NCBI RefSeq assembly: GCF_054482595.1
Contig: NZ_CM137008.1
Strand: one strand, 5' to 3'
DNA: 64,000 nucleotides
Part shown: piece by piece, positions 52,301 through 55,300 of the stretch
Layout: every line of letters starts with the position of its first letter
How positions within the stretch are numbered: the first letter of the stretch is position 1
Position numbers: made by a program

Positions 52301-55300
52301 GGTTTCTGTGACGTTCCAGGTTGATATTCACCCGGCAGCAAAAATTGGTCGCGGTATCATGCTTGACCACGCCACGGGTATCGTTGTGGGTGAAACGGCG
52401 GTGATTGAAAACGACGTGTCGATTCTGCAATCCGTCACCCTTGGCGGTACTGGGAAAACTAGCGGCGACCGTCACCCGAAAATTCGTGAAGGCGTGATGA
52501 TTGGCGCGGGCGCGAAGATTCTCGGCAATATTGAAGTTGGTCGCGGCGCGAAGATTGGCGCAGGTTCCGTGGTGCTGCAACCGGTGCCGCCGCATACCAC
52601 CGCCGCTGGCGTTCCGGCACGCATTGTCGGTAAACCAGACAGCGATAAGCCATCAATGGATATGGACCAGCATTTCAACGGTATTAACCATACATTTGAG
52701 TATGGGGATGGGATCTGATGTCCTGTGATCGTGCCGGATGCGATGTAATCATCTATCCGGCATGGCGTAACTAATCTCTCAACACCGCTCCCGGATATCC
52801 CAGCTGCCGCCAGGCTTCATACACCACTACCGACACCGCATTGGACAGGTTCATGCTGCGGCTGTCTGGCACCATCGGAATGCGAATTTTTTGTTCAGCG
52901 GGCAGGGCATCAAGAATGCTCGCTGGCAGGCCGCGTGTTTCCGGGCCGAACATCAGATAATCGCCATCCTGATAGCTTACGGCGCTGTGAGCAGGCGTAC
53001 CTTTCGTGGTGAGGGCAAACAGGCGCTGGGGATTTTCTGCTTCGAGGAACGCGCTGTAGTCATGATGACGCGTAACGGCGGTAAACTCGTGATAGTCCAG
53101 CCCCGCGCGGCGCAGGCGCTTATCGTCCCAGGCAAATCCCATCGGTTCGATGATATGCAGACGAAAGCCGGTATTAGCGCAAAGACGGATGATGTTGCCA
53201 GTATTTGGCGGAATTTCTGGTTCGTAAAGTACGATGTTTAGCATACTGCCCCCTTAGTGCGGGGGCAGGATAGCAGAAAATTGGTGAACCGTGCGGCCTT
53301 TTCCCCTCACCCCGGCCCTCCCCCTGTCTCTTGATCAGGAGATCTGATCAAGAGACAGCTCCCTGAGGGAGAGGGTTAGGGGGAGGGGGCGCAAACGACT
53401 ATGCCGCATTCCCTTTCGCCATGGGAGCCAGTGCCGCAGGCAACTCTTTACCCAGCCCCTGCACCAGCGAATCTTGCGTAATTTCGCTGATCGATTTCGC
53501 GCCAGTCAGCGTCATCGCCACTTTCATCTCTTTTTCGATCAGATTTAGCAGGTTAGCTACACCCGCCTGGCCCGCTGTTGCCAGCGCATACAGGAAAGCA
53601 CGACCCAGCAGTACGGTGTCGGCACCGAGCGCAATCATACGCACGACATCAAGCCCGTTACGAATTCCGCTATCCGCCAGAATGGCTATATCACCTTTCA
53701 CCGCATCTGCAATAGCGGGCAACGCACGAGCGGAAGAGAGTACACCGTCCAGCTGGCGGCCACCGTGGTTAGAAACTACAATCCCATCAGCACCAAAACG
53801 TACTGCATCGCGCGCATCTTCCGGATCGAGGATCCCTTTGATCACCATCGGGCCATCCCAGAAATCGCGGATCCACTCAAGGTCTTTCCATGAGATGGAC
53901 GGATCGAAGTTATTCCCCAGCCAGCCGATGTAATCTTCCAGTCCGGTCGGTTTGCCGAGGTAAGCCGAAATATTTCCTAAATCATGCGGACGACCGTTCA
54001 GGCCCACATCCCACGCCCATTGCGGATGCGTCACCGCCTGCAAATAGCGGCGCATTGCCGCGTTCGGGCCGCTCATTCCAGAATGCGCATCACGATAACG
54101 CGCTCCCGGTGTCGGCATATCCACGGTGAAAACCAGCGTCGAACAACCCGCTGCTTTTGCTCGCTCCAGCGCGTTACGCATAAAGCCGCGATCGCGCAGT
54201 ACATAAAGCTGGAACCACATTGGGCGCTTGATGGCTGGCGCGACTTCTTCAATCGGGCAAACGGAAACCGTCGAGAGAGTAAACGGAATGCCATGCGCAT
54301 CCGCCGCTTTGGCTGCCTGAACTTCGCCGCGTCGCGCATACATGCCACACAAACCTACCGGACCTAGCGCCACCGGCATCGACAATTTCTCATTAAACAG
54401 CGTCGTTTCCAGGCTTAAGTCGGACATGTTTTTCAGAATACGCTGGCGCAGCGCCACTTCTGACAAATCTTCCACGTTGCGGCGCAGCGTGTATTCAGAA
54501 TATGCACCCCCATCCATATAGTGGAACAGGAACGGCGGCAGAATGCGTTGCGCTGCGGCGCGATAATCGCTGGCTGCGGAAATAATCATGCGTTTTTCTC
54601 CCTCGAATGCTCATTATGCTCACCGGGCAGGCGGGTAATCCGTGCGTGGCGAGCCTGATCTTCATCGAATCGTTTCATGGTGGTGTGAACAAAACTAAGG
54701 TGCGCCATCATTGCTTTACGCGCCCCGTCGGCATCACCAGCAAAAATGGCGTCAATGACAGCCTGATGTTGTTCGGTCAGTTGTGAAAAAACCGGTGGCA
54801 CCAGATACATCCGCTGACGGCTATGCTTCACTGAGGATTGCAGGACATCGAAGAAACCGCGCATGGTTTGCAGCAGCACGATGTTATGTGAGGCTTCGGC
54901 AATCGCCAGATGAAAACGAACGTCCGCTTGTGAGGCGATATCCGGGTCTTCACTTAGCGTTGCTTCAAAGCAAAGCTGAATCTTTTCTTTGTCGCCAGGT
55001 GTGGCGCGCATTGCCGCATGCCATGCGGTGCTGGCTTCAATGGCGTAGCGGGCTTCCAGAATATCGAAACTGTAATCCGGATCATCGGCCATCAGCGTTT
55101 TTAGCGGCTGGACGATGTTTTGCTCCGACCATGTGTCATGACGCCAGCGAATAAACGTCCCGCCGCCGCGTCGACTGAGCAGCACGCCTTCGCTCACCAG
55201 TTTTGCCAGCGCCTCGCGCAGTGAATTACGCGATACGCCGAGTTGCATCGCCAGTTGACGTTCAGCGGGCAACTTCATGCCCGCTTCCAGGTTTTTTTCA

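What the first reader, a model, noticed from the sequence alone, without database searches (positions are those of the whole stretch)
52733..52761. REP-type palindromes in convergent spacers (cysE/trmL and lldP/adhesin)
GCCGGATGCG...TATCCGGC at 52733..52761 and GTAGGCCTGATAAGCGTAGCGCATCAGGCA at 57375..57404 fit the REP family. They are ordinary features, but they mark true extragenic spacers and transcript 3' ends. A similar GCCGGATGGCATACCATCCGGC hairpin lies between mutM and coaD at 27627..27648.
Basis: partly seen in the sequence, partly recalled or inferred. Interest (0 to 1): 0.1.

Follow-up and report, generated by a model that had tools for sequence, protein, structure and literature searches.

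The report
Ordinary REP hairpins between E. coli genes
These are copies, in different states of decay, of the well-known E. coli REP repeat, sitting just after the ends of genes where they form RNA hairpins; they correspond to REP272, REP273 and REP274 of strain K-12, so the finding is real but ordinary.

Summary
All three quoted strings are at the stated coordinates, in true intergenic spacers of an E. coli window, and are far beyond chance. I built a covariance model from 24 REPs taken from other parts of MG1655. It scores 57375..57405 at 49.1 bits (a perfect Z1 REP) and 52732..52761 at 23.8 bits (E about 4e-5). It scores 27627..27650 at only 10.6 bits (E 0.55).

The K-12 orthologues are annotated REP272, REP273 and REP274. 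REP273 and REP274 lie in experimentally mapped overlapping 3' ends of convergent transcripts ("bidirectional terminators").

Corrections:
- lldP and the adhesin gene are co-directional, not convergent.
- The Z1 REP has a missed degenerate Y partner at 57318..57353, so together they form a BIME. A classical terminator follows at 57262..57291.
- The cysE/trmL copy has lost the GTAG tag in this strain. Among 5,426 genomes, 1,932 carry GTAG, 2,842 GTAT and about 58 this allele. One strain carries a canonical Y REP at the same spot.
- The mutM/coaD hairpin has no GTAG and no bulge, so it is REP-like only in its outer stem.
- A fourth hairpin (22842..22863, REP275) and a decayed BIME-1 (10533..10625) were missed.

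Verdict: already known, low interest.

The parts
52732..52761 (-). Single diverged Y-type REP palindromic unit between cysE (+) and trmL (-), orthologue of MG1655 REP273. It has a 7-bp outer stem GCCGGAT/ATCCGGC, an internal mismatch, a 4-bp upper stem GATG/CATC and loop TAAT. The GTAG tag is lost in this strain: where K-12 reads GGCCTACAG the window reads GGCATGGCG.
   Evidence: (23.8 bits, E 3.7e-5, model positions 5-35 only). REP273 naming comes from the supplement of preprint 10.64898/2026.03.23.713779.
57375..57405 (+). Canonical Z1 REP: GTAG, then GCCTGAT, AA, GCGTAGC, GC, ATCAGGC, A. It lies 40 nt downstream of the adhesin (EhaG/UpaG-type) stop codon and is absent from K-12.
   Evidence: (49.1 bits, E 3.3e-13). 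A 175-nt query spanning the BIME matches 123,915 places in E. coli genomes.
57318..57353 (-). Degenerate Y REP (ATAG instead of GTAG, 3 stem substitutions), orthologue of MG1655 REP272. Together with the Z1 REP it forms a tail-to-tail BIME with a 19-nt linker (57356..57374).
   Evidence: (36.1 bits, E 4.2e-9).
57262..57291 (-). Classical intrinsic terminator (13-bp stem followed by a U-tract) downstream of the BIME and upstream of the lldP promoter region. It is conserved in K-12 downstream of yibL.
27627..27648 (.). Perfect 9-bp/4-nt-loop palindrome GCCGGATGG-CATA-CCATCCGGC between mutM (+) and coaD (-), identical to MG1655 REP274. It is REP-like only in the outer 8 nt, with no GTAG and no bulge.
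   Evidence: present in 5,424 of 5,426 genomes, one place each; 10.6 bits, E 0.55.
22842..22863 (.). Perfect palindrome GCCGGATGA-AAAG-TCATCCGGC between pyrE (+) and slmA (-), orthologue of MG1655 REP275.
   Evidence: 8.8 bits. The E. albertii orthologue is.
10533..10625 (-). Decayed BIME-1/RIP-type element between gltS (+) and recG (-). It consists of a degenerate Z1 REP (10533..10563), an IHF-type L linker (TTCGCAATTTATTGAATTT) and a truncated Y REP (GTAGGACGAAGCACATCCGGCA).
   Evidence: (15.3 bits, E 0.018), and 87 (comparison with MG1655 Y-L-Z1 units).

Best explanation
The features are copies of the E. coli REP (repetitive extragenic palindrome) family at positions orthologous to K-12 REP272 to REP275, in a graded series of decay. 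The series runs from an intact Z1 unit paired with a worn Y unit (a BIME) behind the adhesin gene, through a Y-derived unit between cysE and trmL that keeps its hairpin but has lost the GTAG tag, to two short perfect palindromes (mutM/coaD, pyrE/slmA) that keep only the GCCGGATG arm.

How they most likely work now (inferred from K-12 data and the literature, not shown in this strain): each is transcribed into the 3' end of the flanking mRNA(s) and folds into a stable U-tract-less hairpin of -17 to -23 kcal/mol. Between convergent genes this hairpin pauses or traps RNA polymerase arriving from either side, so that converging polymerases collide at a fixed place and the transcripts end just past the hairpin (bidirectional termination). 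The hairpin also blocks 3'->5' exonucleases and so protects the upstream message. The stems begin only 7-14 nt after the four stop codons, so they may also slow terminating ribosomes.

At the DNA level only the Z1 unit (GTAG plus AA/GC bulge) still has the features needed for recognition by the REP-associated transposase TnpA(REP). The other copies are immobile relics.
For: Identity.
- A covariance model built from 24 REP units found in 150 kb of MG1655 far from this region gives 49.1, 36.1 and 23.8 bits at 57375, 57318 and 52732 (E 3e-13, 4e-9, 4e-5).
- The cysE/trmL spot shows an allelic series: N64 carries a canonical Y REP (59.9 bits), then MG1655 with GTAG (39.2), ST2350 with GTAT (31.0), then the window (23.8).
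- The upper stem changed GGCG/CGCC to GATG/CATC, with both pairs kept.
- The only REP-derived Rfam family, naRNA4, is the only family that touches both sites, and only below threshold.
- The K-12 orthologues are named REP272, REP273, REP274 and REP275 in Tables 15/16 of preprint 10.64898/2026.03.23.713779.
- A query spanning the BIME matches a median of 18 places per genome.

Function.
- Table 16 of that preprint lists the REP273 and REP274 hairpins as overlapping termination regions of convergent transcripts. REP273 (39 nt, -16.5 kcal/mol) was detected in stationary phase. REP274 (31 nt, -18.3 kcal/mol) was detected in log and stationary phase.
- Head-on polymerase collision positioned by an RNA stem-loop is the mechanism proposed for these sites in 10.1101/2022.10.23.513370.
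- The REP preprint reports REPs acting as exonuclease blocks and partial terminators, and higher expression of convergent pairs that flank a REP.
- The hairpin is retained in essentially every E. coli genome while the GTAG tail varies: 1,932 GTAG, 2,842 GTAT and about 58 with the window allele. The mutM/coaD hairpin is present in 5,424 of 5,426 genomes at 95% identity or more.
- No U-tract follows any of the three hairpins.
- TnpA(REP) requires GTAG and the bulge (PMC8266576).
Against: - No transcript data exist for this strain, so the functional claims rest on orthology with K-12.
- The REP preprint itself reports large variance and no general effect of REPs on mRNA half-life.
- Retention of the hairpins could reflect low divergence within one species rather than selection.
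- The mutM/coaD and pyrE/slmA palindromes do not score above chance with the REP model (E 0.55 and 2.2). They occur once per genome by megablast. Their REP ancestry therefore rests on an 8-nt arm and on curated annotation.
- Behind the adhesin gene a classical terminator follows the BIME. The REPs there need not define the 3' end.
- The translation effect (Liang, Rudd and Deutscher 2015) is recalled from memory. The paper could not be read here; only its citation and a one-line paraphrase were seen.
Confidence: 0.82

Rival explanations
1. The cysE/trmL, mutM/coaD and pyrE/slmA hairpins are locus-specific bidirectional terminator hairpins that evolved in place. They merely resemble REPs in a GC-rich arm and are not descended from the repeat family.
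For: Each occurs once per genome by megablast. The two short palindromes score at chance level with the REP model. They lack GTAG and the AA/GC bulge. GCCGGATG-N6-CATCCGGC palindromes also turn up in many unrelated bacteria.
Against: For cysE/trmL this is excluded in practice. The K-12 allele ends in GGCCTAC, and N64 has a textbook Y REP in register at the same spot. The model E-value is 4e-5. For the short palindromes, three independent hairpins within 30 kb share the exact 8-nt Y-REP arm GCCGGATG against 0.00 expected, and K-12 curators list them as REP274 and REP275.
Confidence: 0.12
2. The elements are currently active non-autonomous mobile DNA (REP/REPIN substrates of the TnpA(REP)/RAYT enzyme), and their presence here reflects recent transposition rather than any role in expression.
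For: The Z1 unit has an intact GTAG and bulge. The lldP-upstream spacer is structurally polymorphic among strains: a full canonical BIME, a worn BIME, a single 25-nt palindrome, or a Y unit only. K-12 and window homology ends exactly after the GTAG.
Against: Four of the five units examined lack an intact GTAG, which the E. coli enzyme does not tolerate (PMC8266576). The cysE/trmL, mutM/coaD and pyrE/slmA copies sit at the same spot in nearly all of 5,426 genomes. No RAYT gene lies in the window region examined.
Confidence: 0.05
3. The palindromes are chance occurrences with no family relationship and no function.
For: They are short, and the two perfect palindromes have model E-values near 1.
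Against: Shuffles give 0.00 expected against 3 observed. Folding z-scores run from -3.1 to -4.6. The hairpins are conserved across thousands of genomes, and 3' ends were mapped at the K-12 orthologues.
Confidence: 0.01

Closest known systems
E. coli REP palindromic units of types Y and Z1 (MG1655 REP272, REP273, REP274, REP275)
   Same: Same genomic positions, and the same or nearly the same sequence. The mutM/coaD hairpin is identical to REP274. The Z1 unit is identical to Z1 units elsewhere in MG1655, for example L135 38604..38634. The outer stem is GCCKGAT/ATCMGGC, and all lie outside genes at gene 3' ends.
   Different: In this strain the REP273 orthologue has lost GTAG (CTACAG became ATGGCG), which lengthens the stem on the cysE-sense RNA. 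The REP272 orthologue has ATAG and, unlike in K-12, is paired with a Z1 unit next to an adhesin gene that K-12 lacks.
BIME-1 / RIP elements (Y REP, L linker with IHF site, Z1 REP)
   Same: 57318..57405 is a tail-to-tail Y plus Z1 pair. The ends of its linker resemble the ends of the 35-nt L linker seen in MG1655 units. 10533..10625 has the IHF-type core.
   Different: The linker at 57356..57374 is only 19 nt and lacks the AATATATTG core (IHF-type site) of the L linker, so it is an atypical BIME. The 10533 element is heavily decayed.
Overlapping bidirectional terminators between convergent genes (Ju et al. 2019, as re-tabulated in preprint 10.64898/2026.03.23.713779; mechanism in 10.1101/2022.10.23.513370)
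   Same: Convergent gene pairs with a stable hairpin, no flanking A/U tracts and short spacers (52 and 38 bp). The K-12 orthologues are rows 300 and 301 of that table.
   Different: Not measured in this strain. 57375..57404 does not belong to this class because its flanking genes are tandem.
REPIN/RAYT systems (TnpA(REP) with GTAG-tagged hairpins)
   Same: The Z1 unit carries the GTAG and the bulged stem that the enzyme recognises.
   Different: The other units lack the tag and/or the bulge and should not be substrates. No enzyme gene was looked for or seen near them.

Membership tests
E. coli REP palindromic unit (Y/Z1/Z2) | Imperfect palindrome with outer stem GCCKGAT ... ATCMGGC | tested here: met
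   All three cited hairpins, and 22842..22863, have the exact outer stem. 57318..57353 has 3 substitutions.
E. coli REP palindromic unit (Y/Z1/Z2) | Conserved GTAG tetranucleotide immediately 5' of the palindrome (PMC8266576) | tested here: inconclusive
   Met at 57375..57378. Not met at 57350..57353 (ATAG), 52762..52765 (CCAT on the REP strand) or 27627..27648 (none on either strand). The K-12 allele of the cysE/trmL unit does have GTAG, found in 1,932 genomes against 2,842 with GTAT. Of 24 MG1655 training units, 21 have GTAG.
E. coli REP palindromic unit (Y/Z1/Z2) | Conserved AA/GC mismatch forming a bulge in the stem | tested here: inconclusive
   Met at 57375..57405 and 57318..57353 (alignments). 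52732..52761 keeps an internal irregularity, AG opposite CG (a mismatch plus one unpaired base). 27627..27648 and 22842..22863 are perfect stems, so not met.
   Model R1, built from 24 independent MG1655 units: 49.1 bits (57375), 36.1 (57318) and 23.8 (52732), all significant. 15.3 (10533) is borderline. 10.6 (27627) and 8.8 (22842) are not significant.
E. coli REP palindromic unit (Y/Z1/Z2) | Repetitive: many dispersed copies per genome | tested here: inconclusive
   The 175-nt query over the BIME gives 123,915 places, median 18 per genome. The cysE/trmL and mutM/coaD variants are found once per genome by megablast. This is expected for diverged or short copies but is not positive evidence.
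E. coli REP palindromic unit (Y/Z1/Z2) | Extragenic, at the 3' end of at least one gene | tested here: met
   ORF maps and RefSeq annotation of matching genomes.
E. coli REP palindromic unit (Y/Z1/Z2) | Orthologous position annotated as REP in the reference genome | tested here: met
   REP272 (yibL/lldP), REP273 (cysE/trmL), REP274 (mutM/coaD) and REP275 (pyrE/slmA) appear in the supplement of 10.64898/2026.03.23.713779. The RefSeq copy of NC_000913.3 available here carries no repeat features.
BIME (bacterial interspersed mosaic element) | Two REPs in inverse orientation separated by a linker | tested here: met
   57318..57353 (-) and 57375..57405 (+), joined tail to tail with a 19-nt linker. 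They fold together at -42.9 kcal/mol.
BIME-1 / RIP | About 35-nt L linker carrying an IHF site between the Y and Z1 units | tested here: not met
   The linker AGGAATGTGCAGAATCACCCT lacks the AATATATTG core seen in three MG1655 Y-L-Z1 units. The core is present, degenerate, at 10564..10598.
Overlapping bidirectional terminator | Hairpin without U/A tracts centred between convergent genes | tested here: met
   cysE/trmL and mutM/coaD. Not met for lldP/adhesin, which are tandem.
Overlapping bidirectional terminator | Mapped overlapping 3' ends of the two convergent transcripts | not testable with these tools
   Shown only for the K-12 orthologues (Table 16, rows 300 and 301).
Classical intrinsic terminator | GC-rich hairpin followed by a U-tract | tested here: not met
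   None of the three hairpins appears in the terminator scan, and none has a T run. The scan does find 57291..57262 (-) next to the BIME.
TnpA(REP)/RAYT substrate | Intact GTAG plus a bulged stem on the REP strand, with cleavage at a flanking CT | not testable with these tools
   By sequence, only 57375..57405 qualifies. Enzyme activity cannot be tested here.

The most novel reading that the evidence does not exclude
The window captures stages of REP 'domestication'. Once a REP lands between convergent genes, selection keeps the RNA hairpin as a collision-type terminator and stabiliser, while the transposase tag decays or is overwritten. At cysE/trmL the tag went from GTAG to GTAT to a tail that lengthens the stem.

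The short perfect GTAG-less palindromes (REP274, REP275) may be end products of this process. They could arise by collapse of a tail-to-tail BIME onto its two outer 'head' arms. The lldP-upstream spacer of strain 190, where a 25-nt perfect palindrome GCCTGATGCG-CGTAA-CGCATCAGGC replaces the whole Y-linker-Z1 unit, would be a polymorphic example.
Probability: 0.2. Interest if true: 0.25.

Novelty: already known. Interest (0 to 1): 0.07.

Why it matters
It matters little beyond annotation. These are catalogued REP elements of E. coli.

For annotation, they confirm the gene boundaries of cysE/trmL, mutM/coaD and pyrE/slmA and point to likely transcript ends.

They also show that the adhesin gene and lldP are separated by a BIME plus a true terminator.

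The allele series at cysE/trmL is a tidy illustration that a REP hairpin can persist across a species after losing the tag needed for mobility. That fits recent proposals that REPs mainly act as local 3'-UTR regulators.

Tried and rejected
- A fuzzy-regex scan with recalled consensus sequences timed out.
- A local-alignment scan with those consensus sequences found the BIME but missed the cysE/trmL unit, because only its ends match. It was replaced by a covariance model trained on real MG1655 units.
- I looked for REP features in the RefSeq MG1655 record. The copy available carries none, even at the known RIP1 site. The REP names were taken from a preprint's supplementary tables instead.
It yielded only the E. 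albertii orthologue of REP275 and one Citrobacter hairpin. It says nothing about the age of the mutM/coaD hairpin.
- Rfam at gathering thresholds has nothing at these sites. At permissive thresholds only the REP-derived naRNA4 family touches them, below threshold.
- Liang, Rudd and Deutscher 2015, on REPs close to stop codons, could not be read.
- I considered and rejected the view that the three hairpins are classical intrinsic terminators, because none has a U-tract.
- The 'collapsed BIME' origin of the short palindromes was not pursued further. For a perfect palindrome, having the same arm on both strands is automatic. Beyond the 8-nt arm, the mutM/coaD stem (GCCGGATGG) does not match the head arm (GCCGGATGCG).
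Full report
**Context.** The window is E. coli. A 701-bp stretch around the finding is 100% identical to O145:H28 strains and matches 5,424 of 5,426 complete genomes. ORF maps and RefSeq annotation of matching genomes give the following layout:
- cysE 51897..52718 (+)
- trmL 52771..53244 (-)
- lldD, lldR and lldP on the minus strand (53399..57044)
- a YadA-like trimeric autotransporter adhesin gene (EhaG/UpaG type) on the minus strand, ending at 57445
- mutM 26808..27617 (+)
- coaD ending at 27656 (-)

**Observation.** All are intergenic.
- The cysE/trmL spacer is 52 bp. The hairpin starts 14 nt after the cysE stop and ends 9 nt before the trmL stop.
- The mutM/coaD spacer is 38 bp, with gaps of 9 and 7 nt.
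- They are not chance. GCCGGAT-N6-26-ATCCGGC occurs 3 times against 0.00 in shuffles. The GCCTGAT version occurs once against 0.02. The spacers fold with z-scores from -3.1 to -4.6.
- One statement in the title is wrong. lldP and the adhesin gene are both on the minus strand, so that spacer is tandem. The REP lies 40 nt downstream of the adhesin stop and upstream of lldP.

Rfam has no REP family, and a gathering-threshold scan is silent here. I therefore collected 24 REP units from 150 kb of MG1655 far from this region. These reproduce the published Y, Z1 and Z2 types: GTAG, outer stem GCCKGAT/ATCMGGC and an AA/GC bulge (PMC8266576). I aligned them, built a covariance model and searched the whole window without filters:

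| Position | Strand | Bits | E-value | Note |
|---|---|---|---|---|
| 57375..57405 | + | 49.1 | 3e-13 | perfect Z1 unit |
| 52732..52761 | - | 23.8 | 4e-5 | matches model positions 5-35, i.e. without the GTAG |
| 10533..10563 | - | 15.3 | 0.018 | |
| 27627..27650 | + | 10.6 | 0.55 | |
| 22842..22863 | + | 8.8 | 2.2 | |

The headline element and the lldP-upstream element pass. The mutM/coaD hairpin does not.

**Orthology and annotation.** The RefSeq MG1655 record available here has no repeat features. However, the supplementary tables of preprint 10.64898/2026.03.23.713779 name the K-12 orthologues:
- REP272: yibL/lldP, 3777065..3777098
- REP273: cysE/trmL
- REP274: mutM/coaD, sequence identical to the window
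- REP275: pyrE/slmA, equal to window 22842..22863

Table 16 of that preprint re-tabulates 306 overlapping bidirectional terminators between convergent genes and marks 78 of them as REPs.
- Row 300 is the REP273 hairpin, detected in stationary phase.
- Row 301 is the REP274 hairpin, detected in log and stationary phase.

**The cysE/trmL element in the population.** In K-12 the element reads GCCGGATGCGATGTAATCATCTATCCGGCCTAC, with the canonical tail. The window has ...ATCCGGCATGGCG. An alignment of ten genomes shows four alleles:
- GGCCTACAG, with GTAG intact
- GGCATACAG, with GTAT
- the window's GGCATGGCG
- in strain N64, a textbook Y REP (GCCGGATGCGGCGTGAACGCCTTATCCGGCCTAC) in register at the same spot

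Exact-match counts are 1,932 genomes for GTAG and 2,842 for GTAT. About 58 genomes carry the window allele and about 100 fall in the identity band of the N64 type. Model scores fall in step: 59.9, 39.2, 31.0 and 23.8 bits.

Between the canonical and common alleles, the upper stem changed GGCG/CGCC to GATG/CATC, so both pairs were preserved. The C-to-A change that destroys GTAG adds a T-A pair, and the window's further change adds a C-G pair. As a result the cysE-sense RNA stem is longer here: -23.5 kcal/mol against -21.0 for the K-12 allele.

The element is therefore REP-derived beyond reasonable doubt. In this strain it fails the GTAG criterion, and the E. coli REP transposase does not tolerate GTAG mutations.

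**The lldP-upstream element.** The Z1 unit and the worn Y unit form a tail-to-tail BIME with a 19-nt linker. Its ends resemble the ends of the 35-nt IHF-binding L linker of MG1655 Y-L-Z1 units, but the AATATATTG core is missing. A classical terminator (13-bp stem plus U-tract) follows on the minus strand at 57291..57262, and K-12 has it too. The REPs thus sit inside the adhesin 3' UTR, and the true end is probably the terminator.

A query spanning the BIME hits 123,915 places, with a median of 18 per genome. This directly shows that the family is dispersed.

The spacer is structurally polymorphic among strains:
- An O6 UpaG strain has a canonical Y-linker-Z1 unit, scoring 61 and 49 bits.
- The window has the worn Y unit.
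- Strain 190 (EhaG) has a single 25-nt perfect palindrome GCCTGATGCGCGTAACGCATCAGGC in place of the whole unit.
- K-12, which lacks the adhesin gene, keeps only the Y unit. Its homology with the window ends exactly after the GTAG.

**Mechanism.** What is shown here is sequence identity, hairpin stability, position and population conservation. What is inferred is function. The hairpins are transcribed at the ends of the flanking messages. Between convergent genes they act as U-tract-less stem-loops that fix where converging polymerases stall and collide (10.1101/2022.10.23.513370). They also act as 3' exonuclease barriers and partial terminators, as reported for other REPs. Their closeness to four stop codons (7-14 nt) makes an effect on terminating ribosomes possible. 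That work (Liang, Rudd and Deutscher 2015) is cited from memory and from a one-line paraphrase. At the DNA level only the Z1 unit keeps the features of a transposase substrate.

**Rivals.**
- Independent, non-REP origin is effectively excluded for cysE/trmL. It remains possible, at roughly 1 in 8 overall, for the two short perfect palindromes. Their only REP signature is the 8-nt arm GCCGGATG plus curated annotation.
- Active mobility is unlikely for all but the Z1 unit.
- Chance is excluded.

**Novelty and score.** Everything here is catalogued biology, so the novelty class is "already known" and interest is about 0.07. The most novel reading not excluded is that the window shows stages of REP domestication, with the short perfect palindromes as end products, possibly via collapse of a BIME. 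I give that about 0.2 probability and modest interest.

Noticed in passing
window 22842..22863: A fourth hairpin of the same kind, GCCGGATGAAAAGTCATCCGGC, lies between pyrE (+) and slmA (-). It is the orthologue of MG1655 REP275 and is listed as a bidirectional terminator. E. albertii has it with a different loop.
   Followed up: yes
window 10533..10625: Between gltS (+) and recG (-) lies a decayed BIME-1/RIP: a degenerate Z1 REP, an IHF-type linker (TTCGCAATTTATTGAATTT) and a truncated Y REP (GTAGGACGAAGCACATCCGGCA). A separate GC hairpin at 10500..10521 precedes it.
   Followed up: partly
window 57445..61400: The YadA-like adhesin gene (EhaG/UpaG type) is broken into several ORFs here: 57445..59151, then 59148..59810 in another frame, 59957..60661 and 60705..61061. 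O145:H28 RM13514 has one 4,620-bp CDS. The window aligns to that strain at 97.5% only up to about 59179, then at 89% from about 59671. It is probably a pseudogene or a mosaic allele.
   Followed up: partly
window 57375..57378 and 61887..61902: K-12, which lacks the adhesin gene, shares sequence with the window up to and including the GTAG of the Z1 REP, and then jumps to the yibL stop. At the other edge of the adhesin region, next to the yibL stop, there is a half-REP-like GCCAGATGCGGGTTGA. The presence/absence polymorphism may therefore be bounded by REP sequence.
   Followed up: partly
L011 501..525 (E. coli strain 190, lldP-ehaG spacer): A 25-nt perfect palindrome GCCTGATGCGCGTAACGCATCAGGC replaces the whole Y-linker-Z1 BIME. 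To judge from the partial matches, this form may be common among EhaG strains. It could be a collapsed BIME, or a Z1 unit whose bulge was 'repaired'.
   Followed up: partly
window 57191..57300 (+): A sub-threshold Rfam match to the Salmonella sRNA candidate STnc380 (33.5 bits against a gathering score of 60, E 8e-4) overlaps the intrinsic terminator upstream of lldP, on the strand antisense to it.
   Followed up: no
window 53302..53389: A long palindrome in the lldD-trmL spacer. It draws weak matches to microRNA-precursor models on both strands, which simply indicates a long hairpin. It may be the lldPRD operon terminator region.
   Followed up: no
L134 25708..25745 (MG1655): A REP variant with a Y-type outer stem and a GATGC/GCATC upper stem (GTAGGCCGGATAAGATGCGTCAGCATCGCATCCGGC). 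It resembles the diverged upper stem of the cysE/trmL unit, so that unit may descend from this subtype rather than from the standard Y.
   Followed up: no
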